This document shows positions 14,278 through 45,401 of a stretch of 64,000 nucleotides of DNA, piece by piece. Position 1 is the first letter of the stretch, and the number at the start of each line of letters is the position of its first letter. The notes under the pieces are model-generated. The model saw only the letters and a program-made list of their open reading frames with translations. It ran no database searches and was not told the origin of the DNA. A program made the position numbers and the translations under genes. Source of the stretch: a virus (Duplodnaviria > Heunggongvirae > Uroviricota > Caudoviricetes); IMG/VR virus record IMGVR_UViG_3300032280_000594; one strand, given 5' to 3'.

Positions 14278-14297
14278 AAAAAACGACCGTTTTTTAC
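14278..14297. promoter_or_regulatory. A/T-stem palindrome, variant copy A (gaaaaaacgaccgttttttac)
   Basis: palindromic AAAACG-AC-CGTTTT; related to motif copies B-I. Confidence 0.3.
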
Positions 14298-14431
14298 TCA
14301 AATTTTAAGTTGATCCTATACGCACTTGTAAGGTTGTCACCAAAACCCTTTCCAAGGTTATTACATTTATTTGCAGACGCACGTAACTTTTCGCATTATT
14401 TTGAATATATATAGAAAGAAAAAGTTTGACT

Positions 14432-14620
14432 ATGTTTGATAGAGCGAAGAGGGGTTACAAGCCACCTAAACCACAGAGAAGCAGAATAAATTTCTTTATG
14501 GACAAAACCATTTATGACCGGTTAGAAGAGTTCTGTGAGAAGAATGATTATAAGAGAAACGAATTGATCGAATGTATCTTAGAGGAGTTTTTGAATAAGT
14601 ATGGAACCAAGAAGAAGTAA
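14432..14620 (+). CDS. ribbon-helix-helix (CopG/Arc-like) DNA-binding protein
   Basis: track ORF starts at TTG 14426; first ATG 14432; RINFFMDKTIYDRL (beta strand) followed by EEFCEKNDYKRNELIECILEEFL (two helices) is the RHH layout. Confidence 0.55.
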   Translation: MFDRAKRGYKPPKPQRSRINFFMDKTIYDRLEEFCEKNDYKRNELIECILEEFLNKYGTKKK

Positions 14621-15160
14621 ATGATGAAAAAGATAGATGTCTAAGAAGTATAGTTAGTTGTCGTTACCAATAGTTCTTTATGGAATGGGTTATAATGAAT
14701 GGTCTAGTGCGAAGCACTCTCTGCATTCGCAGAGTAAACGAGTTCATAGACCGACGAATTTGAGGTGGATAAGAAAGAACTCACGTATGAAAAAGATTAA
14801 AAGGATATATGGATAATAAGTGGTATGAAGATTATATGAGATCACACTCTCATCTACCTGGTTGGGAACAGAGAAGGTGTATAATAAGAAAGATGAAGAT
14901 AATACATATCTTTTCAGGATCGATATATTCCAGATACATTGGTTTGGAGAAATTAGTACGAAGCATATTTTAGAAAATGAAAAGAGAAAATTTGAACACA
15001 CCAATCAATTACTTGCATTCGCAAAGTAGACCTAATAGAACACCTAGACAGCATAGGATTTTAATGAATCGTATGGGAAAGATTTTCAGGTTATTTAGAC
15101 CTGGTGGGATGACTAATGCTGATTGGTATTATAAACTAACAAATAATAGGAATTTATTAA

Positions 15161-15192
15161 GGTGTGTAAAATCCGTTCGTTTTTTACACACC
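15161..15192. promoter_or_regulatory. perfect 11-bp A/T-stem palindrome with CCGTTCG loop (motif copy B)
   Basis: ggtgtgtaaaa-tccgttcgtt-ttttacacacc. Confidence 0.4.
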
Positions 15193-15396
15193 TTTATAAT
15201 TAAAATGCATTACCGACATAACGAACTTCGTTTGTATTAGGATCTGATAAGGTATAAATGTAGTGTATCATAAATTATATTTATATTTTATAGTATATAT
15301 TAAAATATAAGTACGTGAAAGTCTACTCTTCTGATCTTATCAGCCCGTCATCCAGAACAAATATAAGGAGGTTATTTGGTATAACCAAGGATAAAT

Positions 15397-15424
15397 GCAA
15401 AAATCCGTGCGTTTTTTACACACT
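15397..15424. promoter_or_regulatory. motif copy C (gcaaaaatccgtgcgttttttacacac)
   Basis: near-identical to copy B, 230 bp downstream. Confidence 0.4.
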
Positions 15425-15708
15425 TTATAATAAAACTTATCATTAGTGGTTCTATATAATTATATGGGTTGGGTAAATAAGAATGTTTGGTTGGATGAAC
15501 CAGAGGATGATGGGATAACTCATTTCAAGTTTTTGAGAAGGATTAGAAGGAAGACTAGGATAAAGAGAATTTTTGGGATTGGATATGGATTTAAAAAGAA
15601 GGATAGTTGAATCTATACTCTGCAAGATTGAATTAAAGAATGAGGGTTTATTGGAACCTTATTCTTTATTTAATACTATACGTAGGATGAAGATAATAGA
15701 AAGGTTGT

Positions 15709-15975
15709 TTGGTGGTGGAGAAAGGTGATATATTGGTTTGTACGAAGACTTATTGTAGGTATGTTTTATACAATCGTAGTTGGTCCAGAAATATAAAGGA
15801 TAGTAGTTATATTATAATGGCGATAAAGGAAGGTGTAAATGTTTATGTTTCTAATGAAGAGGGAGGTTTGATGTTATTTTCTTTATATGATGATGGTAAG
15901 TTACCGTATTTAGTGGATTATTTTGTTTCGTTGGTGGATTTTCGTGAGGAAAAATTAGAACAATTGGGTTTATGA
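15709..15975 (+). CDS. FamB protein
   Basis: 88 aa, N-term MVVEKGDILVCTKTY, ends FREEKLEQLGL; sits within the repeat-rich low-coding region. Confidence 0.4.
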   Translation: MVVEKGDILVCTKTYCRYVLYNRSWSRNIKDSSYIIMAIKEGVNVYVSNEEGGLMLFSLYDDGKLPYLVDYFVSLVDFREEKLEQLGL

Positions 15976-16216
15976 GAGAGGATAGTGGTTTGACACGGGT
16001 TGATACACCGTTGGATTGGTTAGAAGCAAGGAGAATGCTGATGTCATTTTTTATTGTTCCTAATCGTTTGGTTAAGATAAAACGTTTGGTTGACACATTG
16101 TATAGTAAAGGTGGAAATAATGTCTAAGGTAGAGGATATGAGTGTTTGGGAATTTAATTGGCGTGTACCTATGGGTGTTCGTAGGTTATTAAGGATTACA
16201 AAGATAAAAAAGTTAT

Positions 16217-16247
16217 TTGCAAAAAAATGAACGGATTTTTGACAAAA
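16217..16247. promoter_or_regulatory. motif copy D (ttgcaaaaaaatgaacggatttttgacaa)
   Basis: A/T stem with ATGAACGG loop; shares ATGAACGGATTTTTGACA with copy E. Confidence 0.35.
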
Positions 16248-16504
16248 TGAAAAGGAAGGTGGTTATAAAGGGGGTCTTTAATGATTACTTTACGGGTTAT
16301 AAGGATAAGGAAAGTTCTGTAGTTGTTATAGGATGGTTATAAAGTTATTGAGCAAAGAATGTTAAAGATAAAAAGATTGTTTAGTAATGACGAGTACTAA
16401 CCGTGGTGATATGGCTAAGATCTTTCGTAGGTATGGTAGGATGCGAAAGATAGCTAGTTTATTTGGTTTTGAAAAGGTATGGTTCTTTAAAGGTGTAAAC
16501 AAGT

Positions 16505-16532
16505 AAAACACACTATTAAGTGTGTTTTTATT
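16505..16532 (+). terminator. putative intrinsic terminator
   Basis: aaacacac-tattaa-gtgtgttt followed by TTTTTA. Confidence 0.45.
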
Positions 16533-16648
16533 TGACTGTTATTATTTATTAAATATGAATATAAAAAAATCTAGAGAGTAAAAAAAATGTGAGTTTCACA
16601 AAAAATGGCTTTTTTAAATAAATATATAATAAAAAATAAAATAATAAA

Positions 16649-17374
16649 ATGACAAAATTTAAACACATAAAATTATTTGAATCGTTTGTGAACGAGGAAT
16701 TAAACCAAGGTACTAAACTTTCTCAGGCGTTAATTCTACATATGATGAAACAACCATCAGAAAAAGGACCTGAGATGGATAGTTGGGAAAAAGATAAAAA
16801 GGTTTATGAAAAAGCTCTAAAAGATTATCTTAAACAATATGATGTTGATGTGAAATTCATTTACGCTTACGGATCTGAATTAACAAAACATTTGTCTCTT
16901 TCTTTAAATTTACCGGAATCATTCATGTCTGGTGTAAAAAGATTTTTTGGTTTTGGAAAATCTAAAGTCTCTCTGAACTATAGGGTGGAAAATCTAACTG
17001 ATTTAAAAGACAATGATTATAGAACGGAAAATTTGAAAGAGGAAGTTTCAGTATCAATTGGATTGGATAGAACAAATACACCTTCAACTCGCTTCAAATC
17101 TAATGAACCTGGTAATTTTGATAAAGAAATTGATATAAGTGGTGTTGATCCTAATAAAGAAGGAAAAGAATATATTGATTTAGATAAAGAAGATGCACAG
17201 ATGATGTGTAAACTATTACAAGATATTAATCCTTACACTAAATTCAAGACTCCAGAGATTTTGGTTGATGCTTTAAATGAGTACTTAGAGGGAGATTTTA
17301 AATTAGATGTGAAGAGATCTCAAACAGAACCTGGTTACAAATTCGTAGTTCTAAATAGAATCATACTAAAATAA
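16649..17374 (+). CDS. hypothetical protein with FamA-like leader (MTKFKHIKLFESF) on an unrelated body
   Basis: ORF track 241 aa; no LAYL-DEGF core. Confidence 0.55.
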   Translation: MTKFKHIKLFESFVNEELNQGTKLSQALILHMMKQPSEKGPEMDSWEKDKKVYEKALKDYLKQYDVDVKFIYAYGSELTKHLSLSLNLPESFMSGVKRFFGFGKSKVSLNYRVENLTDLKDNDYRTENLKEEVSVSIGLDRTNTPSTRFKSNEPGNFDKEIDISGVDPNKEGKEYIDLDKEDAQMMCKLLQDINPYTKFKTPEILVDALNEYLEGDFKLDVKRSQTEPGYKFVVLNRIILK

Positions 17375-17393
17375 TAAATTATACAAACAAAAT

Positions 17394-17425
17394 AAAAAAA
17401 CCAGTTATTAAGACTGGTTTTTTTA
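17394..17425. terminator. bidirectional intrinsic terminator
   Basis: aaaaaaa-ccagt-tattaag-actgg-ttttttt between convergent genes ending 17374 and 17614. Confidence 0.55.
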
Positions 17426-17546
17426 TTTTACCTTCTTTTCTATTCTATTTTAACCAATTTTTTATTTTTTGTTTATATTGTATATAAACCGTACTCACTT
17501 GTGAGAGTCATATAAAATGACTATCTTTGTTATAAATTATATTTAT

Positions 17547-17625
17547 ATGGCAAAGGTGGTTAGAAAAGTTACTCCGAGAGTTTTCTGTGAGGATGGTTCT
17601 TCTTTACTTAAAACTACTTTAAGAA
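17547..17625 (+). repeat. about 75-bp duplicated element, copy 1 (encodes MAKVVRKVTPRVFCEDGSSLLKT...)
   Basis: near-identical to 18752..18830 (3-4 mismatches); opens a 39-codon ORF 17547..17666 that overlaps the convergent gene 17614..17823. Confidence 0.4.
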
Positions 17626-17823
17626 GTATGGTGCTAAAACTAGTTCCATTGCATTATGTATATTAGATTCTAGTAGTTTAGCTTCTTCTTCTGTTAAATC
17701 TAACTCCATAGGTAATTCAACCTCAACTGATACTTTATCATCACTTATCTCAATATTATAGTTTGCCTCAGGTGTCTGACACTCTGTTTTAACTGCTTCG
17801 TTGAACTTTCTTATATGTCTCAT
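17614..17823 (-). CDS. small acidic protein with FamA-like leader (MRHIRKFNEA)
   Basis: ORF track 69 aa. Confidence 0.5.
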   Translation of the reverse strand: MRHIRKFNEAVKTECQTPEANYNIEISDDKVSVEVELPMELDLTEEEAKLLESNIHNAMELVLAPYFLK

Positions 17824-17873
17824 ACTTGTATATATTAATTTTTTTTGTATATTTGTTTATTATTAAACATAAT

Positions 17874-18752
17874 ATGAAACAAGATATGACTGATTGGATG
17901 AAAGATTATGCAGCTAAGCAAGATAAAGAAAAACAAACCATAGATGAAGCCACTAAAACAATCCTTGCTGCCATTAAAGGTGTCGATAGAGTTGGTTGTT
18001 TACCTTCAATCCTAGCTAACTTATTTGAAGCTATTGAGTATGAAGATGCCGACATGGATATGAATAACCAAATGGTTAAATGGGGTAATGAAACTTATGT
18101 AGGTAGAAAACTAAATAAACTAATACCTAATCTTGAAATCCTTTATAACTTCTGTAAAGAAAAAGAATATACAGAAGATAATACTTGGGAGTGGGGTTCT
18201 GGTGATAGAACTATTTGTTATATTCCTAATGAAACCAAACAAATCCTACTATTTGAAAATCAGAACATTCAATTTGTTGTAGTGTTTGATGGTTTTCAAA
18301 TACATGTAAGAGAAGTATTCAGATCTCTTATCAATGATAATGACCAATACTTCTATGGATATGATGGAACTTTTTATAGTTCTGTAGATGAACTAAGACA
18401 AGCTCTTAAACAAGATAATGGTTTAGAAATCGCTATATGCAATCTAACGGGTAACTGGTCTAGATTTTCTAATTCAATTGAAGGTAATAAGTATCCGGAT
18501 AAAATTGATTTAGATAATATGAAACAGAATAACTTTGGTGAGAAGTGTATGGCTTTTAGATATGGTGATAATAGAGATTGTGGTTATGTTTTCTCAACCT
18601 ATAAGCTTATGTTATCAGAAAAGTGTGAAATAAATGATATGAATAAAGCTTCTTATGTATTTTGGGATATGGTGGGAGCTACTAAGGAAATACCTAAGAA
18701 ATATATCAAATCTTTTAAAAGAGATGCTAAACTTACTAATCTTGGTGTATAA
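17874..18752 (+). CDS. hypothetical protein
   Basis: track ORF 17826..18752; first ATG after the hydrophobic false N-terminus is 17874 (MKQDMTDWMKDY). Confidence 0.5.
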   Translation: MKQDMTDWMKDYAAKQDKEKQTIDEATKTILAAIKGVDRVGCLPSILANLFEAIEYEDADMDMNNQMVKWGNETYVGRKLNKLIPNLEILYNFCKEKEYTEDNTWEWGSGDRTICYIPNETKQILLFENQNIQFVVVFDGFQIHVREVFRSLINDNDQYFYGYDGTFYSSVDELRQALKQDNGLEIAICNLTGNWSRFSNSIEGNKYPDKIDLDNMKQNNFGEKCMAFRYGDNRDCGYVFSTYKLMLSEKCEINDMNKASYVFWDMVGATKEIPKKYIKSFKRDAKLTNLGV

Positions 18753-18847
18753 TGTCAAAGGTGGTTAGAAAAGTTCCTCCGAGAGTTTTCTGTGAGGATG
18801 GCACTACCTTACTTAAAACTATACGTTCTCATAAGGATCAAAGGTAA
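18752..18847 (+). CDS. micro-ORF / gene remnant (copy 2 of the 75-bp element)
   Basis: TAATG overlap with stop of 17874..18752; MSKVVRKVPPRVFCEDGTTLLKTIRSHKDQR; probably the N-terminal remnant of a decayed FamB-like gene. Confidence 0.25.
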   Translation: MSKVVRKVPPRVFCEDGTTLLKTIRSHKDQR

Positions 18848-18921: not shown

Positions 18922-18950
18922 GGTAAAAATATGAACGGATTTTTGACATT
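18922..18950. promoter_or_regulatory. motif copy E (ggtaaaaatatgaacggatttttgacatt)
   Basis: A/T stem gtaaaaat/atttttgac with loop ATGAACGG. Confidence 0.35.
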
Positions 18951-19258
18951 TAATCTTTAAATAGACTGTCTAATTTCTTATCTCTAATTATAGCTAATAT
19001 TTCAGGACAATCAGAAAAGTTCAAACTATTTTTCAATTCAATATCATCAAATATATTACCTATTAATTTAACTTCATCAAAATCATCTTCTAACACAGTT
19101 TTAGTTAGTTCATTTTGATCATAATTGTATGCAAATACAATTAACCTTGTATAATTGGCCACCAATCGATAAAGAGAATACCATTTATTGTTTATATAAA
19201 GAAATCTAGAAACACCATTTATCGTTTGACCTATATCATAAATGTTACCTTCTTTCAT
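18950..19258 (-). CDS. hypothetical protein
   Basis: ORF track 102 aa. Confidence 0.5.
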   Translation of the reverse strand: MKEGNIYDIGQTINGVSRFLYINNKWYSLYRLVANYTRLIVFAYNYDQNELTKTVLEDDFDEVKLIGNIFDDIELKNSLNFSDCPEILAIIRDKKLDSLFKD

Positions 19259-21367: not shown

Positions 21368-21632
21368 GATAGTTTATACGGGACCAACCTGTTACTTAGG
21401 TCAATGCCATTTCACCAGCGGTAAAACATATGATATTCATTCAAATAAGGCATTGAGGTATGAAGGAAGTGTGTATTACATTATAGCAGATAATGATATA
21501 TGGTATTATATAAATATGGGTAATTCACGTTCTCCATATAACTCTTTGGAAATTGTAGATAGTTTAGATAGTAATTTTATGACCTTACAGAAATGGAGAA
21601 ATAACCAAATAGAAAGTGTATTACAATGTTAG
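21360..21632 (+). CDS. FamB protein
   Basis: ends FMTLQKWRNNQIESVLQC; source of the 57-bp duplicate at 18856. Confidence 0.55.
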   Translation: MNKIVYTGPTCYLGQCHFTSGKTYDIHSNKALRYEGSVYYIIADNDIWYYINMGNSRSPYNSLEIVDSLDSNFMTLQKWRNNQIESVLQC

Positions 21633-21943
21633 TTAAGTGTATATCAACTAGTTCATCTGCGGATAGACCAGAAGCTCTTCATTTTAGGTGGTTGACATTG
21701 GATAAGATTTACAATGTGGAGGAGATACGTATCTTAAATTCGAATTCGGATAAGGTGTATTATTATATAATAGATGATTGTGGTGAGATTTCACCACACC
21801 CTAAACATTGTTTTATGGATTTAATGCTATGGAGACAACAACAGATAGAAAAAGTGCTAAATGATTCAGTAGTAAATCCGTTACCTCCGGTTTTAGAAGG
21901 TAAAAAAAATGTTAAGTGGGATGATGAAACATATTTAGAGTAA
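21626..21943 (+). CDS. FamB protein
   Basis: MLVKCIS...LMLWRQQQIEKVLND. Confidence 0.55.
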   Translation: MLVKCISTSSSADRPEALHFRWLTLDKIYNVEEIRILNSNSDKVYYYIIDDCGEISPHPKHCFMDLMLWRQQQIEKVLNDSVVNPLPPVLEGKKNVKWDDETYLE

Positions 21944-21965
21944 AATCCGTGTAGATTTTTACAAA
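21939..21965. promoter_or_regulatory. motif copy F (gtaaaatccgtgtagatttttacaaat)
   Basis: palindrome 20 nt upstream of the 21987 ATG. Confidence 0.4.
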
Positions 21966-21986: not shown

Positions 21987-22367
21987 ATGAGATATATAAA
22001 ATTATTTAAAGAATCAGCACAGAGTGGTGATAAAATCAATTGGAACACTTGGAATAACCAATTAAAACGTGATTGTGTTGACTTTACAGAGGATGAATTA
22101 AAGTTCTTGGAAAAGTTCAAACAGCATTGTACGAAGCATAACTATGAGGTAACTATAAGGGATTCTCATATAGTTATTATGCCTATTAAGTATAATGAAA
22201 CTATGGAACCTAAGAGTGAGATATGGAAACATGAGGGTTTCTTTGTAATTCAAAGGTCTAGAATGTGGAGAAGGTATGGTAATTCATATGAAGAAGGTAG
22301 TAGAGAAGCTTTTAGATGTGATGAGCAAAAGATTTATGATATAATAGGGAAATACGACTTATTTTAA
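21987..22367 (+). CDS. FamA-like protein (MRYIKLFKES), flanked by motif copies F and G
   Basis: ORF track 126 aa. Confidence 0.55.
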   Translation: MRYIKLFKESAQSGDKINWNTWNNQLKRDCVDFTEDELKFLEKFKQHCTKHNYEVTIRDSHIVIMPIKYNETMEPKSEIWKHEGFFVIQRSRMWRRYGNSYEEGSREAFRCDEQKIYDIIGKYDLF

Positions 22368-22372: not shown

Positions 22373-22400
22373 GAGTAAAATACGTACGGATTTTTACAAA
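22373..22400. promoter_or_regulatory. motif copy G (gagtaaaatacgtacggatttttacaaa)
   Basis: palindrome between convergent genes. Confidence 0.4.
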
Positions 22401-22702: not shown

Positions 22703-23136
22703 ATCTTATCTACTATCTTTATATTTATTCCCCAAATAGGATAATCTAAACCGGTTTTATCATTTATCACTTGGTCTAATGATAAATATCTTAATCCACT
22801 TGTAGTATTAAAACAAACGTAAATGTGAGCAGTATCATCTAAATAAGGTATCAACTCATATCTTCTTTGTAACATCTGTAAAAATGGTATGTAGTAATCT
22901 TTTACATCATTCCAATTGAATTTTTGATAACCTATTGCATCATAGTTTTCATTGGGTAAACCTAAACTTACGATTATATGATTCTTTCCTGGATATTTCA
23001 CTTGATCTCTTACAGATAAACTAACATTATAACCTTCATCGTATAGGTAAGCAAATGAGGTATCACAGAACTCTTGTAGTTCTTCTTCAAAATTAAAAGA
23101 GGTTATATCTTCGTTGAATGGTTTAAGGTGTTTCAT
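22699..23136 (-). CDS. FamA protein
   Basis: MKHLKPFNED; FCDTSFAYLYDEGY; WNDVKDYYIPFL. Confidence 0.65.
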   Translation of the reverse strand: MKHLKPFNEDITSFNFEEELQEFCDTSFAYLYDEGYNVSLSVRDQVKYPGKNHIIVSLGLPNENYDAIGYQKFNWNDVKDYYIPFLQMLQRRYELIPYLDDTAHIYVCFNTTSGLRYLSLDQVINDKTGLDYPIWGINIKIVDKI

Positions 23137-23137
23137 A

Positions 23138-23602
23138 TTATCTTTTTATTTTGATCCAATTTACGTCTGTCATAACGTTTCTTCCTATTTTTAACATAGT
23201 ATCATTTAATACATCATCTAGTTTAAATGTTCTAGGTGTAACTGTACGATTGCCAAATCCATCATAACTCAATCCCATTTCGACTTCTATATTAGATAAT
23301 AAACCAAATTGATTTACAAATCTTGTTAAAAATGGTATAAAGTAATCCTTTATTTCAGACCAAGGTTTTGGTATAGATCTATTCGTACCTTCTACATTGA
23401 TAATTCTAATATACGATCTATCACTTAACAAGTCGTTATCATCGTGAGGACCATTTGATGGTCTTCTAACATCGATTGTATATCCTTCGTCTAGTAGGTA
23501 AGCTAAATGAGAGTTATTAGCGAAATCTAATACGTCACCTGCTTTTATATTGAACCAATTATCTCTGGCTTCATTGAATGGTTTAATATGTTTCATTATC
23601 AT
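23138..23602 (-). CDS. FamA protein
   Basis: MIMKHIKPFNEA; NSHLAYLLDEGY; WSEIKDYFIPFL. Confidence 0.65.
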   Translation of the reverse strand: MIMKHIKPFNEARDNWFNIKAGDVLDFANNSHLAYLLDEGYTIDVRRPSNGPHDDNDLLSDRSYIRIINVEGTNRSIPKPWSEIKDYFIPFLTRFVNQFGLLSNIEVEMGLSYDGFGNRTVTPRTFKLDDVLNDTMLKIGRNVMTDVNWIKIKR

Positions 23603-24002
23603 CTTTTAATTCTATATGTATTTTACACCAATAATCATTTCTGGTTAGTTTATCATTTACTAGTTCGTCAAAACTAACTTTCTCCCAAAGTCTTTTGTCT
23701 GAGGGTCCTTTTACTTGTATGAATACTAATTTTTCATCACCTATTTTAATTTGATGACCTCTTATTTTATTAAGTTGTATTAAGAATGGAATGAAATAAT
23801 CTTTTATATCATTCCATTTAAACCATTGATTACTTTCAAGTCTTATTTGACCACGGTATGTTCCACCTTGAGTATGATCATGAAAGGATTCTACATTAAG
23901 TTCAAAGTTATAATCATCTAGTAGATAAGCTAGATGTGTTTCACAGAAGTCTTTTAAATCTTCTTCGTTATTATCTTCGTTGAATCGTTTAATATATCTC
24001 AT
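23583..24002 (-). CDS. FamA protein
   Basis: MRYIKRFNED; FCETHLAYLLDD; WNDIKDYFIPFL. Confidence 0.65.
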   Translation of the reverse strand: MRYIKRFNEDNNEEDLKDFCETHLAYLLDDYNFELNVESFHDHTQGGTYRGQIRLESNQWFKWNDIKDYFIPFLIQLNKIRGHQIKIGDEKLVFIQVKGPSDKRLWEKVSFDELVNDKLTRNDYWCKIHIELKDDNETY

Positions 24003-24511
24003 TATTTAAAGTAATTTTTTATTTTGGTTAGAATAGATTTCTTTGGTTGTTTATAACCATCAATTAGAAACTCCATCTCTGTTATATAGGATTCTAAAAC
24101 ATCATCAGTATCATTATCAAATAAAAGACCTGACTTTGTATCATCATTGATTAGTTTATCTACTTCATAGTATAACTCTGTTTTACGATGAGGAAATCTG
24201 TTTCTAGCTGCTTCTAAGTCACGTGTTACTTCTATTTTGACATCACCATGGTTACGAACTTTAAGTTCATATTGATTAGATAATCTAGTTAAGAAAGGAA
24301 TCATATGATCTTTTATATCATTCCATAATCTAGGATTGTCATCTAATACTAATGTAAGTTTGAAACTTAAGCCTAAACCACCTCTAACTAACATTATAGA
24401 AATATCTAACTCTTCATCGATTAGATAAGCTAGATTCATTTCACAGAAATCTTTTAAGTCTTGAGCGAAGGTGTCACCTACTGCTTCATTGAATGGTTTT
24501 AAATGTTTCAT
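24002..24511 (-). CDS. FamA protein
   Basis: MKHLKPFNEA; FCEMNLAYLIDE; WNDIKDHMIPFL. Confidence 0.65.
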   Translation of the reverse strand: MKHLKPFNEAVGDTFAQDLKDFCEMNLAYLIDEELDISIMLVRGGLGLSFKLTLVLDDNPRLWNDIKDHMIPFLTRLSNQYELKVRNHGDVKIEVTRDLEAARNRFPHRKTELYYEVDKLINDDTKSGLLFDNDTDDVLESYITEMEFLIDGYKQPKKSILTKIKNYFK

Positions 24512-24513
24512 AT

Positions 24514-25746
24514 TTAGAGAATGAATTTATTTACAATACCAGATATTTGACTGGCACCATTTTGACATATATCATGGTGTTCTACTCCTGGTATAACTTC
24601 TAAAGATGTTTTATCATTTGGAAAATTACCTTTGTCGTCTTTTTCAGCTTGTTCCTTAGTAAGTTTACCTGAGTCGGTTTTACCCGCCCTAATAATTAAA
24701 CACTCAACACTATTATCTAACTTTTCTATTTCTTTTGGATCTCTCTGTAATGATCCAACCATACCAATCGCTTGACTGTGTAAGAAATCAATATTTGATT
24801 TTCTATCACCATTTTTTAAATCACAGTAGTAGTTCTTTTTATCTGGTGAATCATATTTATCTTGTACTATCCAAACATTATTAGGATTTTTAATACCTGA
24901 TAAAGTAATAATTGATTTGATGTATTCAATAGTTGTTTTACCATCATTTGGTATTTCTTCTTGCTTCACACCTTTTTTCCAAACAGAGGATGGATTATTT
25001 TTACTAGGATAGTGTTCACCTACTCCTTCTGTGAATGGTTCATCTATGAATTCAATTACAAGTTCTTTTGTTGCTCTCCATGTTTCATAATCTGATTGAT
25101 TGAAATCAAAATCTGATAGTTGGGCTTTACCAAAATCAAAATCAGATGGATTTTTTTTATGAACTTCTGGTTTATATGTATATTTGAATTGAATAATTTC
25201 GTCTTTTGTTGGATTAGTTGATTCTTGAGAATCTTTTTCATAAAAAGTAAAGGTAACACAATTATACCTTCTCATTGTGTTATTTTTCATTGTTGTACTT
25301 ACATATTTATCAGGTGCTATTGCATTAGGAGCAGCGGCATCTATACATATAAATTTACCTTTGAAATCTGATCCTAATTCTTTAATTATCCAAAATCCAA
25401 AAGTTGTACCCATTGAAAATCCTAGAATAGATAAATTAGGATATGATTTTAATTGTTCCGCGATTTCCTTACATTTATCTTTACCATTATCTTTAACGTT
25501 CTCATCATATGAAAATGTTATTAGGTTAAATGTTTTTTTTAACAGAGGAGCAAGTGCAGAATAGTCAGAAATAGGATTACCGCCACCACCTGGAATTAAA
25601 AGAAGTGTTGGTTTATTTTTATCATCATCTGATTTATCATCTATTGGATAAGGTTGAATAATAAATTTCTCAGGTGATAATTTTTCTTTATTATCTTCTA
25701 ATATAAGTCTAAATTGTTTATATAACTTTAAGTGTTTCATAATCAT
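24514..25746 (-). CDS. alpha/beta hydrolase (lipase/esterase-like) carrying a FamA-type leader
   Basis: MIMKHLKLYKQF leader; LLLIPGGGGNP oxyanion-region and nucleophile elbow GFSMG; 410 aa. Confidence 0.6.
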   Translation of the reverse strand: MIMKHLKLYKQFRLILEDNKEKLSPEKFIIQPYPIDDKSDDDKNKPTLLLIPGGGGNPISDYSALAPLLKKTFNLITFSYDENVKDNGKDKCKEIAEQLKSYPNLSILGFSMGTTFGFWIIKELGSDFKGKFICIDAAAPNAIAPDKYVSTTMKNNTMRRYNCVTFTFYEKDSQESTNPTKDEIIQFKYTYKPEVHKKNPSDFDFGKAQLSDFDFNQSDYETWRATKELVIEFIDEPFTEGVGEHYPSKNNPSSVWKKGVKQEEIPNDGKTTIEYIKSIITLSGIKNPNNVWIVQDKYDSPDKKNYYCDLKNGDRKSNIDFLHSQAIGMVGSLQRDPKEIEKLDNSVECLIIRAGKTDSGKLTKEQAEKDDKGNFPNDKTSLEVIPGVEHHDICQNGASQISGIVNKFIL

Positions 25747-25807
25747 TAAATTTTTTATTCATCTTCGACGTTGATTAACAATATTGCGGAATGGCTACAA
25801 AGTTTCA

Positions 25808-26353
25808 TTATTTAAAGTAATTTTTTATTTTGGTTAGAATAGATTTCTTCTCTTGTTTATATCCTTTAACATATAAACGTATATCACTTATTCTAGCATT
25901 CGGCCATGTGCTCTTATCTTCTATTAAATCTTTTATTTGACATTTCATATAAGATGATGGAGATATTGATGCAGTGTCTGGACGATGATTACCATCAAAA
26001 GATATATGAAGTCTTATATCTTCCACTTTTGATTTTATAGTTTTACCAGGAAATGCCTGACTAGTTATGTAACTAGAGTAAGATGCTTCTTTAAAAGGTT
26101 TATTATTTATTTCATATTTATTATCTAATCTAGTTAGGAATGGTATCATATGATCTTTTATTTCATTCCAACGTTTAGGTTCGTTTAGAAGTATTCTAAT
26201 CAGATGTAGTTCAGACCAACCACCAGGACTTTCTATAACTTGTAATTCGGCTTCATCTAATAGATAAGCTAGATTCATTTCACAGAAGTCTTGTAGTTCA
26301 TCTTCAAAACTAAAAGAGGTTATATCTTCGTTAAATGATTTTAAATGTTTCAT
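25808..26353 (-). CDS. FamA protein
   Basis: MKHLKSFNED; FCEMNLAYLLDE; WNEIKDHMIPFL. Confidence 0.6.
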   Translation of the reverse strand: MKHLKSFNEDITSFSFEDELQDFCEMNLAYLLDEAELQVIESPGGWSELHLIRILLNEPKRWNEIKDHMIPFLTRLDNKYEINNKPFKEASYSSYITSQAFPGKTIKSKVEDIRLHISFDGNHRPDTASISPSSYMKCQIKDLIEDKSTWPNARISDIRLYVKGYKQEKKSILTKIKNYFK

Positions 26354-27483: not shown

Positions 27484-27636
27484 ATATGTATATTTTAGGT
27501 GTTTGTGATTAACATTTAGGTAATAGTATATTATGAAAATTATAGTTATACAATATCTTTTCTCATGTTATTTACTTATTTTATACAAAGATATATAATA
27601 AAAAAAGACTAAACAAATTATTTAGTCTTTCTTTTA

Positions 27637-27915
27637 TTATTTATTTTCTTGAATATGGTGTTTCCAAATTAGAAAATCTTGCCACATTCCATCTACTACA
27701 TCAGTTATTTCATCATTGTAATCTTCACTATCTAATTTTTGTTTATAGTCTTGTAGAAATTCTATAAGTTGATCTATCCTAAAGTATAAATGTTTATTTG
27801 GATTCGAAGAATCTGAATTTTTTTCCCAACCTGCTAATGATCCAGGATGATCCATCCCAGATAAAGTACCCATTCCATGACTATCAAAATTTTCAAACTT
27901 TTTAATTTGTATCAT
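27637..27915 (-). CDS. hypothetical protein
   Basis: ORF track 92 aa. Confidence 0.45.
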   Translation of the reverse strand: MIQIKKFENFDSHGMGTLSGMDHPGSLAGWEKNSDSSNPNKHLYFRIDQLIEFLQDYKQKLDSEDYNDEITDVVDGMWQDFLIWKHHIQENK

Positions 27916-28048
27916 AATATTATTTTTTATTTTTATATATTAAATGAAAAAAATCATTTTTTAACATTTTTAATTAAATATATTATCTAGTATTGAAATT
28001 AGTTCATTTTTAGTCAATAAACCATTGTAGGTAAAAAATCCATCAATT

Positions 28049-28444
28049 TTATAATGTTTCTCCTTCAATTAATCTTGATGCTGTTGCATAGTTTGTTGCT
28101 AGAGGTATATCATATACATTACATAACCTCATCAACATATGTATATCTACTGAGTGTGGGTGTGAAAACATAGGGTCTATAAAGAAAATGACCATATCAA
28201 TCTTTCCTTCTACTATCAGTGAAGCGATTTGAGCGTCTCCACCTAATGGTCCAGACTTTAGACATTCTACTTCTAAACCTCCGGCATGTATGATATGAGT
28301 GCCGGTTGTACCAGTGGCATAAAGTTTCACTGATTTATCTTTAAAGTAGTTTAAACGTTTCATAACGAAAGCGACCATATCGGCTTTCTTGTTGTCGTGG
28401 GCAATGAGTGCTATGTTCATAGGTAAATTATTTTTACAGTACAA
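28049..28444 (-). CDS. mgsA: methylglyoxal synthase
   Basis: NIALIAHDNKK, ATGTTG, SGPLGGDAQI, VIFFIDP motifs of the MGS family. Confidence 0.8.
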   Translation of the reverse strand: MYCKNNLPMNIALIAHDNKKADMVAFVMKRLNYFKDKSVKLYATGTTGTHIIHAGGLEVECLKSGPLGGDAQIASLIVEGKIDMVIFFIDPMFSHPHSVDIHMLMRLCNVYDIPLATNYATASRLIEGETL

Positions 28445-28464: not shown

Positions 28465-28497
28465 TTTGTCAAAAATCCGTGCAGATTTTTGCTTTTT
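28465..28497. promoter_or_regulatory. motif copy H (gtcaaaaatccgtgcagatttttgc), about 55 nt upstream of the mgsA start
   Basis: A/T stem caaaaat/atttttg with loop CCGTGCAG. Confidence 0.4.
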
Positions 28498-28518: not shown

Positions 28519-28692
28519 TCAGTCTGCTGCGCAGTAATAACCTTTGAAACTATGTTCTTTTATCAAGTTCTCACTTATCAATCGGTCTATCTGAGCTTTC
28601 GTAGTTTGTATATCTTCTTTGGTTATATACTGACATATATAATTGATATGGGTTGGTAGATTCAATTTCTTTAATAATTCGGTATCTTTCAT
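28519..28692 (-). CDS. hypothetical small protein
   Basis: track ORF 28519..28758 trimmed to the internal start MKDTELLKK, which gives an ATGA overlap with the upstream gene. Confidence 0.35.
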   Translation of the reverse strand: MKDTELLKKLNLPTHINYICQYITKEDIQTTKAQIDRLISENLIKEHSFKGYYCAAD

Positions 28693-29021
28693 TTTATTGA
28701 TTCGATAAATATATAAAAATTTAATAACATATAGAATATGGCAGGTAAACTTACCCATAATGTATCTTTTGATTTCAATCTAAATAGTATAGCTATAAAC
28801 ATAAGTAACGCTAATCCACCAGATGAGATAATGAGTATTGGATTATATAACATACCTACTAATAATCCTATAGAACCCATTAACTCTAATGTAATGGTTA
28901 GTAAACCAATCTTTTCTAAATTAAGTCTTTTAAACTCATCCTTCATGAAAGGTGAAATAAAATAAGATATGAAATAGATAAAGAATGATAAACTGGATAG
29001 GTAGATTGCTATATTATACAT
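28689..29021 (-). CDS. DoxX-like integral membrane protein
   Basis: 4 predicted TM segments; FKRLNLEKIGLLTITLELMGSIGLLVG pattern. Confidence 0.5.
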   Translation of the reverse strand: MYNIAIYLSSLSFFIYFISYFISPFMKDEFKRLNLEKIGLLTITLELMGSIGLLVGMLYNPILIISSGGLALLMFIAILFRLKSKDTLWVSLPAIFYMLLNFYIFIESIK

Positions 29022-29353
29022 TAAGTAAATAATGTTATATAAACACTTAATACCAATAGAATAAATGATGGTACTCTTTTCAATAAAGTACTGTTTACTC
29101 TAAAATGGAAGTATTGTGCCATAAACATCATTGTAGCCATACCTACTGCTGCAGGTTGAGTAAGTTCATTAAACCATATACCGGTAATTAGTAAGGTAGC
29201 TAAAACTATTTTAGTTGTACCTACTAGATTTCTGGTAGTACCGTTTAGATTGAATTTTATGAATTCAGCTACTACGTTATCATATCGGAAAATCCAAACC
29301 CAAAGGACAGATATTGTGACTATTATTTGAGAGATTGTAATGTAATTTATCAT
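29021..29353 (-). CDS. DoxX-like integral membrane protein (paralog of the previous gene)
   Basis: similar length and hydropathy; TKIVLATLLITGIWF. Confidence 0.5.
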   Translation of the reverse strand: MINYITISQIIVTISVLWVWIFRYDNVVAEFIKFNLNGTTRNLVGTTKIVLATLLITGIWFNELTQPAAVGMATMMFMAQYFHFRVNSTLLKRVPSFILLVLSVYITLFT

Positions 29354-29355
29354 TG

Positions 29356-29772
29356 TTATATTATATTTTTTATGATGGGAAAACTTCTATATCTAGTTCT
29401 TTTTTGTCTATCATTTTTTTTGTTTCTTTTTATAAAGTCTTCAATATCATTTTGGTGATAACTAAGAAGTTGTCCTATTCTTCTGGTATCATTTTCAGTG
29501 GCCCAGTATGCAAAGTACCCATTATACTTTTCGGCAATATCTTTTAGTTCTTGGGCTTGTGTTTCAGAACCAGGTCTAAAGTAGATATAAACTTCTTGTG
29601 GATTAGATGGTATTTTAAGTACTTTCAAGTTATTTGTTTTTATAATATCCCAGAAGTTACCTGTTAATGAGTTATGTATTAAACCTATGGTTCCTATGTT
29701 TCTTTTACCATTGATAACAGTTTCTATGGCATTATTATCATTGTGTGCTTCATGAGCTCTTATGTTCTTCAT
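29356..29772 (-). CDS. hypothetical protein
   Basis: ORF track 138 aa. Confidence 0.45.
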   Translation of the reverse strand: MKNIRAHEAHNDNNAIETVINGKRNIGTIGLIHNSLTGNFWDIIKTNNLKVLKIPSNPQEVYIYFRPGSETQAQELKDIAEKYNGYFAYWATENDTRRIGQLLSYHQNDIEDFIKRNKKNDRQKRTRYRSFPIIKNII

Positions 29773-29931
29773 ATATTACAATTGTTTAGGTGTTCTCTTT
29801 GATAAACTAACTAAGTTGTTAAAAAATGATGTTTTATTTCTTTTTAAATATTTTTGATAATATTGGTATTAGTATTAAACACAATATTAGTATAAATCCT
29901 TGATATTCTTCCATATTTTTAAATATTTTTA

Positions 29932-30360
29932 TTAAGATGGAAATACTTCTATTGTTCTTTCTTCTTTAACCAGATCACTCCATACACCTTCATATCTAGT
30001 TCCTTTTACTATATGGTTATCCACCCAGTGGTAGTTACCACCTCTTGGTTTATTCATAAGTAATCCGTGATACTTATAACCCCATTTATCTAACCAAGCT
30101 TCAGTTATTTCTCTATGTTCTTCTGTTCTAGAAGTAAAGAATGTTATTACGTGACCTTCATCATACCATTTGTTTAGCGTTTCAATAGAACCGGCATAAG
30201 GTTGAACCACGGCCATTCTTTGAGGTTCTTCGTTGGGTACATCATCGGTGATAGTACCGTCTATATCGATTAGATAGTTTTTGATGTCTTGTGGTAGTTG
30301 AGGACTCGCTAGGTGTCCTTCATCATCTAGTATTGAGATTAGGTTTATTTCTTTTTTCAT
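29932..30360 (-). CDS. HAD-superfamily phosphatase/nucleotidase-like
   Basis: motif I LIDIDGTIT; TFFTSR (motif II-like). Confidence 0.55.
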   Translation of the reverse strand: MKKEINLISILDDEGHLASPQLPQDIKNYLIDIDGTITDDVPNEEPQRMAVVQPYAGSIETLNKWYDEGHVITFFTSRTEEHREITEAWLDKWGYKYHGLLMNKPRGGNYHWVDNHIVKGTRYEGVWSDLVKEERTIEVFPS

Positions 30361-30401
30361 ATGTGTTATATGAATTTTATAGTGATTGGTTTACCAATCT
30401 T

Positions 30402-30794
30402 CTATAGTTCTCCCTTATTTTTTAATTCTCTATATGTTTCGTGATCTATAAACTTACCCTCAACGTCATAACCCCACTGTCTCTTTGGTTTTGAAGCAAA
30501 GAAAAGTGTATAAACAACAGGTGTCTCCATTTGTAGTATCTTATGATAGTCTTCACCGTCTCTTACATTGATTTTACCAGGTCTTTGAAATTTAATACCC
30601 CTTTGTGTTTGTTCGATATAAGAACCTTTTAAAACGACTGACGTGAAGTCCCAAGGGTGGTTATGAAGATGTTTATCTGCATCGGCTTTATAAATAGCGT
30701 GTAGCCAGATAGAACCGAAGGGTGTTTTAAGAATTTCCCATCGTTTGAAGTGGACATCACCGGCTTTCGATTTGATTTCTTTGATAAGTTTCAT
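30402..30794 (-). CDS. hypothetical protein (His-rich HLHNHPWDF segment, possibly cupin-like)
   Basis: ORF track 130 aa. Confidence 0.45.
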   Translation of the reverse strand: MKLIKEIKSKAGDVHFKRWEILKTPFGSIWLHAIYKADADKHLHNHPWDFTSVVLKGSYIEQTQRGIKFQRPGKINVRDGEDYHKILQMETPVVYTLFFASKPKRQWGYDVEGKFIDHETYRELKNKGEL

Positions 30795-30796
30795 AT

Positions 30797-30821
30797 TACA
30801 AATATACGGATTTTTTTAATG
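30797..30821. promoter_or_regulatory. partial motif copy I (tacaaatatacggatttttttaatg)
   Basis: half-site ACGGATTTTT in the 21-nt gap between two - genes. Confidence 0.25.
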
Positions 30822-45400: not shown

Positions 45401-45401
45401 T

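What the first reader, a model, noticed from the sequence alone, without database searches (positions are those of the whole stretch)
14278..30821. Dispersed hairpin family: 8-11 bp pure A/T stem (TGTAAAAAT / ATTTTTACA) with a G/C-containing loop CCGTGYAG / ACGG (9 copies)
The copies sit at 14278, 15161, 15397, 16217, 18922, 21939, 22373, 28465 and 30797. All are intergenic. Two flank a single FamA cassette (21987..22367). One lies about 55 nt upstream of mgsA and one sits inside the 21-nt gap between two minus-strand genes. Stems made only of A/T with a conserved G/C loop are weak for an RNA terminator. They fit better a DNA-level signal: operator for a dimeric DNA-binding protein, cruciform, or a promoter-stem-loop of the PeSL type that mediates cassette shuffling in T4-like hyperplastic regions. 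Copies D/E carry a TTGACA hexamer, but no -10 follows at 16-18 nt.
Basis: seen in the sequence. Interest (0 to 1): 0.65.

Follow-up and report, generated by a model that had tools for sequence, protein, structure and literature searches.

The report
Shuffling-prone intergenic hairpins in a megaphage
A family of short palindromic DNA elements sits between genes in a highly variable stretch of a ~635-kb freshwater phage genome, and related strains show genes gained, lost or swapped exactly at these elements, much like the known 'PeSL' shuffling cassettes of T4-like phages.

Summary
The conserved unit is the 9-10-mer (A)AAAATCCGT. It has 9 exact copies against 0.65 expected, and 8 of them are intergenic within 15.1-30.8 kb. 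A few bases further on comes a T-run, usually forming a quasi-palindrome. The 'master' form in relatives is GCAAAAATC-CGTGCA-GATTTTTGC.

Predicted hairpin strength ranges from -18 to 0 kcal/mol. The element is therefore not a uniform structure, and most copies are not canonical terminators.

The window belongs to a ~635-kb megaphage. Related contigs show:
- two copies plus a gene where another strain has a single copy, at two sites;
- a chimeric copy whose junction lies in the loop;
- a conversion tract confined to one hairpin core;
- a loop inverted (flip/flop) inside an otherwise homologous ~125-nt module;
- a decayed GIY-YIG homing-endonuclease gene lying between two copies.

Copies often sit just upstream of phage-type promoter motifs.

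Best reading (confidence 0.5): these are PeSL-like terminator/insulator-promoter boundary elements that provide short homology for cassette shuffling. An operator for a DNA-binding protein, a site-specific recombination site and an RNA-processing site are not excluded. Breakpoints are not statistically enriched at the copies, because nearly every gene junction here is variable.

The parts
15159..15194 (+). Family copy S1: AAGGTGTGTAAAA-TCCGTTCGTT-TTTTACACACCTT. It has a perfect 13-bp stem and is the strongest hairpin in the window. It lies 2 nt after the stop of the GIY-YIG remnant on the opposite strand.
   Evidence: -16.2 kcal/mol, z = -6.8
15195..15266 (-). 23-codon remnant (MIHYIYTLSDPNTNEVRYVGNAF*) of a GIY-YIG homing-endonuclease gene. 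The gene is full length (172 aa) in relative L035 at 1430..1948(-).
   Evidence: L035 protein matches PF01541, E = 2.5e-7
15305..15396 (-). Conserved ~100-nt module attached to the hairpin. It contains a TTGGT-N-ACCAA palindrome, GGATGACGGGC, a small variable hairpin and AGTAGAC..TACT. It lies between hairpin S2 and a TAATATATA promoter-like box. The same module occurs in 5 different gene contexts in relatives.
   Evidence: no Rfam match
15397..15423 (+). Family copy S2: GCAAAAATCCGTGCGTTTTTTACACAC. It is a chimera. The left arm and left flank match L035 2075; the right arm and 25 nt of right flank match S1. The junction lies in the loop.
16217..16245 (-). Family copy S3: TTGTCAAAAATCCGTTCATTTTTTTGCAA on the minus strand. 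It is a single copy here. L035 has two co-oriented copies (1209-, 860-) enclosing a promoter plus a ~90-107-aa gene at this site.
18922..18948 (-). Family copy S4, between the convergent genes 17826..18752(+) and 18950..19258(-). No significant fold.
21872..21885 (+). Degenerate copy (GTAAATCCGTTACC) now inside the extended C-terminus of gene 21626..21943. In L035 and L143 the homologous gene stops here, in a hairpin.
21939..21963 (+). Family copy S5 (H1): AGTAAAATCCGTGTAGATTTTTACA. It overlaps the stop codon of 21626..21943 and lies 11 nt upstream of the TTTATATATAC-N4-ATG promoter-like box of the cassette gene.
21987..22367 (+). 126-aa ORFan cassette gene flanked by H1 and H2. It is absent from L143, which has one hairpin at the site, and is replaced by an unrelated 81-aa gene in L035.
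22373..22398 (-). Family copy S6 (H2), a near-perfect palindrome AAAATACGT|ACGGATTTT between convergent genes. In the 635-kb strain its core reads CCGTGCAGATTTTTGC: 4 changes within a 17-nt span, none in the ~120 nt of flanks shown.
28465..28492 (+). Family copy S7: TTTGTCAAAAATCCGTGCAGATTTTTGC. It lies between a 57-aa gene and the mgsA-like gene (both minus strand), ~20 nt upstream of a CCTTACCTTTGTA promoter-like box. L118 has a better stem (GCGG). The core is mutated (ACGT) in L133/L145/L147. The hairpin is absent in L146 (L148 has no family copy either).
30797..30821 (-). Family copy S8: AAAAAAATCCGTATATTTGTA. The left arm is kept but there is no hairpin. It lies in the 21-nt gap between two minus-strand genes.
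14278..14297 (.). Loosely related palindrome AAAAAAC-GACC-GTTTTTT, 37 nt after the stop of 14071..14241 and upstream of the RHH-like gene. It lacks the core, so membership is doubtful.
45932..45961 (.). Hairpin with the same stem as the master copy (AAAGCAAAAATC / GATTTTTGCTTT) but loop TTAATT, at a convergent gene junction. It shows that the stem type also occurs without the CCGT core.
   Evidence: -13.7 kcal/mol
14432..14620 (+). Small RHH-like protein gene at the left edge of the cluster. It is a candidate binder only; no evidence links it to the sites.
   Evidence: RHH_1 E = 0.037 and RepB-RCR_reg E = 0.007, both below the curated cut-offs

Best explanation
The copies are a lineage-specific family of short quasi-palindromic boundary elements in a hyperplastic (gene-cassette) region of a ~635-kb megaphage.

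Each one marks the end of one small transcription unit and usually the start of the next. The typical layout is: stop codon, hairpin, a phage-type promoter box (TWATATATA-N4-ATG or CCTTAYCTTTGTA-N16-ATG), then the gene. At best they act as weak or variable bidirectional terminators or insulators.

Their main evolutionary effect is at the DNA level. The shared 10-25 nt, and the hairpin or cruciform potential, offer short homology at which ectopic recombination and template switching take place. Cassettes are thereby inserted, deleted and replaced, the copies convert one another, and loops invert. This is the mode of action described for PeSL elements of T4-type phages.

Shown here:
- non-random enrichment and intergenic location;
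- clustering within ~16 kb;
- the strain-to-strain rearrangements at the copies.

Inferred:
- terminator or insulator activity;
- that recombination is homology-driven rather than enzyme-directed;
- that the CCGT core is conserved by descent and conversion rather than by binding of a factor.
For: Enrichment and location
- AAAATCCGT occurs 9 times against 0.65 expected. Eight copies are intergenic and lie within 0-40 nt of a stop codon.
- There are none in 31-64 kb, and none in ~10 kb beyond either end of the window.
- Relatives carry many copies in the homologous region. L143 has 6 in 12 kb.

Genome context
- The window is 100% identical by megablast to ENA and Logan contigs.
- It is 97-99% identical to two 635-kb contigs across most aligned blocks (three blocks at 89-96%), with many indels.

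Cassette polymorphisms at copies
- L035 has copy-promoter-gene-copy where the window has the single copy 16231.
- L143 joins win 21754-21864 directly to win 22367-22418 through one hairpin. It lacks the gene that H1 and H2 flank in the window.
- L035 carries an unrelated 81-aa gene at the same hairpin.
- L136 replaces win 16482-17531 with two other genes bounded by copies 230- and 1817+.

Exchange inside the element
- 15400 is a chimera with its junction in the loop.
- At the 22386 site, 4 changes fall within a 17-nt span and none in the ~120 nt of flanks shown.
- The 6-nt loop is exactly reverse-complemented (CGTGCA vs TGCACG) between copies of one homologous ~125-nt module.

Palindromy is maintained in its own right
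- Stems extend into non-homologous flanks with different sequences: GGTGTGT/ACACACC, AATTAATGC/GCATTAATT, TGGC/GCCA.

The same slot holds ordinary terminators elsewhere
- Several other convergent or tandem junctions carry canonical A-run/GC-stem/T-run hairpins.
- Promoter-like boxes follow hairpins at fixed short distances.

Weak constraint
- The orthologous copy upstream of mgsA is mutated in some strains and missing in L146, while the mgsA promoter region is kept.

Precedent
- In PeSLs, an ORF flanked by two elements in RB49 corresponds to one element in phi1, and the crossover maps to the loop (PMC2839356; PMC4122927).
Against: - Breakpoints are not specifically enriched at family copies. 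Almost every gene junction between 14 and 31 kb is a breakpoint in some relative, and most indels against the closest 635-kb strain lie elsewhere: 16388-16557, 17616-18748 between paralogous gene starts, 27626-27975 and 30403.
- About half of the copies do not form a meaningful hairpin, and most lack a GC-rich stem directly followed by a T-run, so terminator activity is doubtful.
- One arm plus loop (AAAAATCCGT) is invariant while the other arm is degenerate. This could equally mean recognition by a sequence-specific factor. Part of the asymmetry comes from ascertainment, because copies were found by that word.
- No sigma-70 promoter is part of the element.
- No transcript or recombination intermediates were observed.
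Confidence: 0.5

Rival explanations
1. The copies are operator or roadblock sites for a sequence-specific dimeric DNA-binding protein, for example the RHH-like protein encoded at 14432..14620. The sites would form a local regulon. Protein binding at gene ends would attenuate read-through or control the adjacent promoters.
For: - The core is invariant while structure is not uniformly kept.
- The copies are quasi-palindromic.
- The cluster spans 16 kb and starts next to an RHH-like gene.
- There are none elsewhere in ~84 kb.
- Several copies lie 10-25 nt upstream of promoter-like boxes.
Against: - Two copies lie between convergent genes, where there is no promoter.
- One half-site is degenerate in most copies.
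- The orthologous copy mutates in the core or is lost while the neighbouring gene and its promoter stay.
- There is no copy at the RHH gene's own promoter. Only the core-less palindrome 14278 lies ~110 nt upstream.
- The RHH assignment itself is below Pfam thresholds.
Confidence: 0.18
2. The copies are core sites of a site-specific recombination or nicking system. Candidates are a lox/FRT/dif/attC-like tyrosine-recombinase site, or the target of a hairpin-specific nuclease such as the neighbouring GIY-YIG enzyme. The system would excise and integrate gene cassettes, giving a phage 'integron-like' arrangement.
For: - The architecture is 9-11-bp inverted arms around a 6-8-bp asymmetric spacer.
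- In three of four cases, directly oriented copies flank a segment that is absent, with one copy left, in another strain.
- The chimera junction and the loop inversion map to the spacer.
- A GIY-YIG gene or its remnant adjoins copies in L035 and in the window.
Against: - No integrase, recombinase or transposase domain was found in the window proteins scanned against Pfam (about 50 of ~148 ORFs), nor among the 10 largest scanned against PHROGs.
- Spacers differ between the partners that flank a cassette (CGTGTA vs CGTACG; CGTTCG vs CGTGCG), which would block tyrosine-recombinase exchange.
- Right arms are degenerate.
- Many indels in the same region occur at unrelated sequences, and one clearly by homologous recombination between paralogous gene starts.
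- The second intact GIY-YIG gene, at 54737..55402, has no family copy nearby.
Confidence: 0.1
3. The copies work only at the RNA level, as 3'-end stabilisers, RNase III/RNase E processing sites, or protein-dependent terminators. The rearrangements around them would be incidental.
For: - The copies lie 0-40 nt after stop codons.
- Some copies in relatives have 14-16-bp stems at -14 to -17 kcal/mol (L035 2075, L118 1839).
- The outer stem shows compensatory changes.
Against: - The loop orientation flips relative to the transcribed module, and two copies are antisense to both flanking genes (16231, 28472). A strand-specific RNA sequence signal is therefore unlikely.
- Several copies have no stable fold.
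- The family is local rather than genome-wide.
Confidence: 0.1

Closest known systems
PeSL (promoter-early stem-loop) mobile regulatory cassettes of T4-type phages (Arbiol et al. 2010, PMC2839356; Comeau et al. 2014, PMC4122927)
   Same: - Dispersed, conserved intergenic stem-loop elements concentrated in a hyperplastic region and flanking ORFans.
- A composite layout with a promoter for the next gene.
- Between close relatives, 'two elements plus gene' corresponds to 'one element'.
- Chimeric elements occur, with the crossover in the loop.
- Homing-endonuclease genes are among the variable cargo.
   Different: - The host genome is a ~635-kb megaphage, not shown here to be T4-like. No T4-like core gene was seen in this window.
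- No sigma-70 -35/-10 promoter is present. The promoter boxes are TWATATATA-N4-ATG or CCTTAYCTTTGTA-N16-ATG, and they are not always there.
- The stem is A/T-rich and often weak, rather than polyG/polyC.
- The conserved unit is only ~25 nt, or ~125 nt in the module form.
- Terminator and promoter activity and mini-circles are untested.
Bidirectional intrinsic (Rho-independent) terminators
   Same: - The layout is A-run, inverted repeat, T-run.
- The position is just after stop codons and at convergent gene junctions.
- Canonical examples occupy the same slot elsewhere in this genome (1490, 16505, 17389, 26409, 26479, 31551, 37302, 37421).
   Different: - The GC-containing upper stem is only 2-4 bp.
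- The T-run is part of the stem rather than following it.
- Half of the copies have no significant fold.
- Unlike ordinary terminators, the copies share a specific sequence.
lox/FRT/dif/attC-type recombination core sites
   Same: Inverted arms of 9-11 bp around a 6-8-bp asymmetric spacer. Directly oriented copies flank excisable segments. Hybrid sites occur.
   Different: No cognate recombinase was found. Spacers are not identical between partners. The arms are degenerate. Other indels in the region use unrelated sequences.
Stoperators of cluster A mycobacteriophages (own knowledge: Brown et al. 1997, L5 gp71 sites)
   Same: Many copies of a short conserved motif in short intergenic spaces near gene ends.
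   Different: Stoperators are asymmetric, genome-wide and oriented with transcription. Here the element is quasi-palindromic, local, and its orientation is uncoupled from transcription.

Membership tests
PeSL (T4-type phages) | Intergenic sequence able to form a stable stem-loop that acts as terminator or attenuator | tested here: inconclusive
   Predicted RNA folding: 9 of 16 distinct sites are at or below -9 kcal/mol and 7 are weaker than -7, some at ~0. Terminator activity was not measured.
PeSL (T4-type phages) | Strong sigma-70-like early promoter (-35/-10, AT-rich upstream) within the same ~100-bp unit | tested here: not met
   The sigma-70 scan gave 105 sites vs 118.6 in shuffles, with no consistent site at the copies. 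Non-sigma-70 promoter-like boxes follow some copies instead.
PeSL (T4-type phages) | Concentrated in hyperplastic regions and flanking ORFans | tested here: met
   All 8 copies lie within 15.1-30.8 kb. There are none in the rest of the window or ~10 kb beyond either end. The flanking genes examined lack Pfam hits, and the region is mosaic in all relatives.
PeSL (T4-type phages) | Indels or replacements between relatives bounded by the elements (two elements plus ORF vs one element) | tested here: met
   L143 vs window at H1/H2. L035 860/1209 vs window 16231. L136 230/1817 replacement. Caveat: there is no enrichment over other junctions.
PeSL (T4-type phages) | Chimeric elements, with crossover inside the element | tested here: met
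   The 15400 chimera has its junction in the loop. Conversion tract at the 22386 site.
PeSL (T4-type phages) | Circular excision products (mini-circles) | not testable with these tools
   This needs reads or inverse PCR.
Intrinsic bidirectional terminator | GC-rich stem of at least ~5 bp immediately followed by a U-tract | tested here: not met
   The terminator scan flags only one family site (15423-15407, minus strand) but does flag the canonical hairpins. The upper stems are 2-4 bp.
Intrinsic bidirectional terminator | Located downstream of stop codons or at convergent junctions | tested here: met
Tyrosine-recombinase core site (lox/FRT/dif/attC-like) | Inverted binding arms around a 6-8-bp asymmetric spacer | tested here: met
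   GCAAAAATC-CGTGCA-GATTTTTGC and its variants. This is a resemblance of form only.
Tyrosine-recombinase core site (lox/FRT/dif/attC-like) | Cognate recombinase encoded by the element or genome | tested here: inconclusive
   None was found in the 64-kb window among the ~50 proteins scanned (Pfam; PHROGs, 10 largest). The remaining ~570 kb of the genome were not available.
Tyrosine-recombinase core site (lox/FRT/dif/attC-like) | Identical spacer in recombining partners | tested here: not met
   H1 CGTGTA vs H2 CGTACG; S1 CGTTCG vs S2 CGTGCG. Only the L035 pair shares CGTTCA.
RHH-type operator | Repeats overlapping the regulated (often the protein's own) promoter and bound by the RHH protein | not testable with these tools
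   Binding cannot be tested. By position, there is no core-bearing copy at the RHH gene's promoter.
Stoperator (cluster A mycobacteriophages) | Asymmetric site whose orientation follows the direction of transcription | tested here: not met
   Copies 16231 and 28472 are antisense to both neighbours, and the loop flips within a homologous module.

The most novel reading that the evidence does not exclude
The elements are genuine site-specific recombination sites: short inverted arms around an asymmetric spacer that can flip. A still unidentified megaphage enzyme would use them to capture, excise and invert single-gene cassettes. This would be a phage-borne, integron-like cassette system in which each cassette carries its own promoter.
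Probability: 0.08. Interest if true: 0.8.

Novelty: new variant of a known kind. Interest (0 to 1): 0.45.

Why it matters
Huge phages carry hundreds of ORFan genes in variable regions, and how these genes are exchanged is poorly understood. Here co-occurring strains of a ~635-kb phage differ by single-gene cassettes bounded by one short repeated palindrome, with chimeras, conversion tracts and a flipped loop. This suggests that the 'mobile regulatory cassette' principle described for T4-type phages (PeSLs) has an independent counterpart in a megaphage that uses different promoters and a different hairpin. It also yields concrete sequences for testing, with metagenomic reads or reporters, whether such elements are passive homology patches, insulators or enzyme targets.

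Tried and rejected
- Phage GenBank megablast of 14-32 kb gave no match.
- Protein-based search of IMG/VR found no relatives or only distant ones (L001/L002). The motif scan of IMG/VR gave 8 single chance hits.
- The metagenome motif scan returned 120 loci. Nearly all are chance single hits; only L035, L078 and L118 are relatives.
- An exact look-up of the 751-aa protein found nothing on record.
- Rfam gave nothing at gathering thresholds, and only sub-threshold noise for the hairpin or the ~100-nt module.
- The window has no tRNA.
- Sigma-70 promoter idea: not enriched.
- Breakpoint-enrichment test: not discriminating, because almost every junction is a breakpoint.
- The distant 642-kb relative LR756502.1 (42 kb examined) has no AAAATCCGT family. 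It has its own related terminator stems, CCCAGTCA/TGACTGGG.
- A scan of bacterial and archaeal genomes with AAAAATCCGTGCRGATTTTT gave 15 unrelated single hits in diverse taxa. None has homology to the window, so there is no host clue.
- The idea that the 22386 site is a loop flip was rejected. It is a set of substitutions or a conversion. The true flip is in the module copies.
- 'FamA' membership of the 126-aa cassette gene was not confirmed.
- The IS200/IS605-type peel-and-paste model was rejected, because excision there removes both hairpins, whereas one copy stays here.

Full report
**1. Observation**

The conserved unit is AAAATCCGT. It has 9 exact copies against 0.65 expected, and no shuffle out of 100 reached 9. 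With one mismatch allowed there is no enrichment (27 vs 21).

- The ninth (5837) lies inside a CDS with no palindrome and is probably chance.
- The site at 14278 lacks the core and is only a similar-looking palindrome.

Oriented on the core, the copies read [G][T/C][C/A]AAAAATC-CGT[G/T/A][C/T][A/G]-(G)ATTTTT[G/A]C. The left arm and the start of the 'loop' are invariant, while the right arm is degenerate.

As RNA, only 15161 folds strongly (-16.2 kcal/mol). Copies 18922, 22373 and 30797 are no better than shuffles. Over 16 distinct sites, relatives included, energies range from -18 to about 0.

The family is therefore real and non-random. It is a sequence family with variable palindromy, not a uniform 'A/T stem plus G/C loop' hairpin.

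**2. What genome this is**

The window is 29% G+C, has no tRNA and no Rfam hit. It is packed with small ORFs, mostly ORFans.

- Start codons lack Shine-Dalgarno sequences.
- There are large paralog families, one with 24 members and one with 15.
- Exact-protein look-ups show the window is 100% identical by megablast to ENA scaffold_178 of ERZ28594979 and to a Logan contig.
- It is 97-99% identical across most aligned blocks (three blocks at 89-96%) to two ~635-kb contigs, Ga0480313_0000001 and ERZ28593922 scaffold_1.
- The only GenBank phage relative is distant: LR756502.1, 642 kb, 33% identity over a 751-aa protein.

It is therefore a freshwater megaphage. A Bacteroidota-type host is an inference from the missing SD sequences only.

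**3. Intergenic grammar of this genome**

Many genes carry T[T/A]ATATATA exactly 4 nt before the ATG. Another set carries (CC)TTATCTTTGT 14-22 nt before the ATG. Both look like phage promoters that give leaderless or near-leaderless mRNAs; this is inferred.

Canonical bidirectional terminators (A-run, GC-rich stem, T-run) occur at 1490, 16505, 17389, 26409, 26479, 31551, 37302 and 37421.

The family copies occupy the same slot:
- They lie 0-40 nt after a stop codon.
- Two lie at convergent junctions (18935, 22386).
- Others lie 10-25 nt before a promoter box. 21942 precedes TTTATATATAC-N4-ATG. 28472 precedes CCTTACCTTTGTA and then mgsA. L035 1209 and L143 6580 precede CCTTATCTTTGTA.

Their G/C-containing upper stem is only 2-4 bp, however, and the T-run is part of the stem. 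The terminator scan flags only one family site.

A hairpin at 45932 has the master stem with a different loop.

**4. Distribution**

All core-bearing copies lie within 15.1-30.8 kb. There are none in 31-64 kb, and none in the ~10 kb beyond either end of the window in the 635-kb strain or other contigs.

Relatives have many copies in the homologous region: L143/L144 have 6 in 12 kb, L035 has 4 in 6.9 kb, and L136 has two additional ones. Another variant (L146/L148) has none in 7.6-9.5 kb.

The 42 kb examined of LR756502.1 has none. It has its own set of similar terminator stems.

The family is thus local and lineage-specific. This argues against a general signal for the transcription machinery.

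**5. Comparative evidence for exchange at the copies**

(a) *Site 16231.* The window has one copy. L035 has two co-oriented copies with identical right arms (1209-, 860-) enclosing a promoter box and a ~90-107-aa gene. Homology with the window runs through the hairpin and stops at its end.

(b) *Sites 21942 and 22386.* These flank the 126-aa ORFan gene.
- In L143, the end of the upstream gene (win 21754-21864, 94.6%) is joined through a single hairpin directly to the right flank of H2 (win 22367-22418, 92%). This is an 'empty site'.
- L035 has a perfect palindrome AAAATCCGTACGGATTTT at that place, followed by an unrelated 81-aa gene.
- In the window, a degenerate copy (21874) has been absorbed into the upstream CDS after loss of the stop codon.

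(c) *L136.* It replaces win 16482-17531, a 241-aa gene flanked by canonical terminators, with two other genes bounded by family copies 230- and 1817+.

(d) *Sites 15168 and 15400.* These are direct repeats sharing 38 nt. They enclose a 23-codon remnant of a GIY-YIG homing-endonuclease gene that is intact in L035 (172 aa, PF01541 E = 2.5e-7). Copy 15400 is a chimera. Its left arm and flank match L035 2075, its right arm matches 15168, and the junction lies in the loop.

(e) *Site 22386 in the 635-kb strain.* The core reads CCGTGCAGATTTTTGC instead of ACGTACGGATTTTTAC. That is 4 changes within a 17-nt span and none in the ~120 nt of flanks shown, which is a conversion tract towards the master sequence.

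(f) *The ~125-nt module.* A hairpin plus ~100 nt occurs in five gene contexts: before the GIY-YIG gene, before a TylF-like methyltransferase, and elsewhere. Within it the 6-nt loop is exactly reverse-complemented between copies (CGTGCA vs TGCACG) while stems and flanks stay collinear.

(g) *Outer stems.* They extend into non-homologous flanks with different sequences, so palindromy itself is maintained or regenerated.

**6. Limits**

Nearly every gene junction between 14 and 31 kb is a breakpoint in some relative. Six of nine family sites lie within 45 nt of a breakpoint, but this is not clearly more than for other junctions.

Against the closest strain, most indels lie elsewhere. One is plainly homologous recombination between ~70-nt paralogous gene starts. 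The family is therefore one of several kinds of short homology used in this region, not the sole driver.

Orthologous copies evolve about as fast as their flanks:
- The mgsA-upstream copy gains a better stem in L118.
- It loses the core G in L133, L145 and L147.
- It is absent in L146, where the mgsA promoter region is retained; L148 has no family copy either.

This indicates weak constraint.

**7. Interpretation**

The best-supported reading (confidence 0.5) is a PeSL-like boundary element. It is a weak or variable terminator or insulator, often coupled to a downstream phage promoter. Its shared sequence and hairpin or cruciform potential make it a site of ectopic recombination, gene conversion and loop inversion, through which single-gene cassettes are shuffled.

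The parallels with PeSLs are specific. In PeSLs, two elements plus an ORF correspond to one element, the crossover lies in the loop, and homing endonucleases are among the cargo (PMC2839356; PMC4122927).

Strict membership fails on two counts: the sigma-70 promoter, and the genome, which is not shown to be T4-like. It is untested for terminator activity and mini-circles.

Rivals:
- *An operator or roadblock for a DNA-binding protein (0.18).* The invariant core and the local cluster beside an RHH-like gene favour it. Convergent-junction copies, degenerate half-sites, and loss or mutation in strains count against it.
- *A site-specific recombination or nuclease target (0.10).* The lox-like form and directly oriented flanking copies favour it. 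No recombinase was found, and spacers are unequal.
- *A purely RNA-level element (0.10).* The flipped loops and antisense copies count against it.

**8. Novelty and score**

The principle is known from T4-type phages. Here it appears in a ~635-kb megaphage, not shown to be T4-like, with a different hairpin and different promoters. A documented loop flip and a conversion tract add to it. This makes it a new variant of a known kind.

Interest is 0.45. The finding is informative about how megaphage ORFan regions evolve and is directly testable with existing metagenomic reads, but it is not a new category unless an enzyme is involved.

Noticed in passing
window, e.g. 1104, 7306, 11926(-), 13135(-), 17837(-), 21973, 26367(-), 36801, 44485, 46482(-), 47384, 53334(-), 56714, 57666, 60827: A promoter-like box T[T/A]ATATATA lies at a fixed 4 nt before the ATG of about 20 genes, members of paralog families and unrelated genes alike. 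This implies leaderless or near-leaderless mRNAs and a phage-specific promoter class.
   Followed up: partly
window 4660, 17523, 46508, 19492(-), 27592(-), 32647(-), 52652(-), 56681(-); also upstream of mgsA at ~28440(-): A second promoter-like box, (CC)TTATCTTTGT, lies 14-22 nt before the ATG. It is often preceded within ~20 nt by a hairpin, either canonical or of the family.
   Followed up: partly
window 15305-15396; L035 1975-2070; L118 1722-1825; L143 6870-6965 and 10915-11012; L149 4300-4405: A conserved ~100-nt non-coding module is attached to the hairpin. It contains a TTGGT-N-ACCAA palindrome, GGATGACGGGC and a small hairpin with an apparent compensatory replacement (CTGATaagATCAG vs TGTGTaaCACAG). 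It occurs in five gene contexts and has no Rfam match. It could be a regulatory region or a small RNA.
   Followed up: partly
window 54737-55402 (-): An intact GIY-YIG plus NUMOD3 homing-endonuclease gene (PF01541 E = 5e-12) with its own TTTATATATA box. It is absent from relatives L152 and L155 at the same place.
   Followed up: no
window 7939-13120, 22422-26353, 36816-37304, 44499-48012, 56605-57216, 60840-62727: A 24-member paralog family of ~130-300-aa ORFans starting M[KR][YH]LK.FNE, arranged in tandem arrays. A 15-member family of ~70-105-aa proteins mostly ends in ...KL..LG[IL], with the stop overlapping the next ATG.
   Followed up: partly
window 14658-16506 (+): A run of very small ORFs (40-90 aa) on a G-rich strand shares a C-terminal motif [KR]-I-x-R-[IL]-F-G. 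The composition differs from the neighbouring sequence (GC skew +0.29).
   Followed up: no
window 17547-17616 and 18752-18822: ~70-nt direct repeats, the starts of paralogous genes (MAKVVRKV.PRVFCEDG...), flank a 1.1-kb segment (genes 17614..17823 and 17826..18752). That segment is deleted in the 635-kb strain, apparently by homologous recombination.
   Followed up: yes
L118 599-690; L146 8188-8279: Relatives carry a 92-nt tRNA-Phe(GAA)-like gene in the variable region where the window has none.
   Followed up: no
L151 (LR756502.1) 6580, 18112, 18803, 30145: The distant 642-kb phage has its own family of terminator hairpins with related stems (CCCAGTCA/TGACTGGG). The window's 17389 terminator also uses CCAGT/ACTGG. 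Shared terminator stems may be a general trait of these phages.
   Followed up: no
L160-L174 (genome-contig hits): The 20-mer AAAAATCCGTGCRGATTTTT occurs once each in 15 unrelated bacterial and archaeal genomes, many of them 55-70% G+C. This is more than a rough expectation of ~1-2 (my own estimate, not computed). They are probably terminator-like palindromes, and none is related to the window.
   Followed up: partly
window 28049-28420 (-), 28689-29353 (-), 29932-30360 (-), 31578-32408 (-), 40688-41575 (-): Metabolic or auxiliary genes lie within the variable region: an MGS-like gene, two DoxX-like genes, a HAD phosphatase, an SPFH/Band 7 gene and FolD. The DoxX pair and neighbouring genes are present or absent depending on the strain.
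   Followed up: partly
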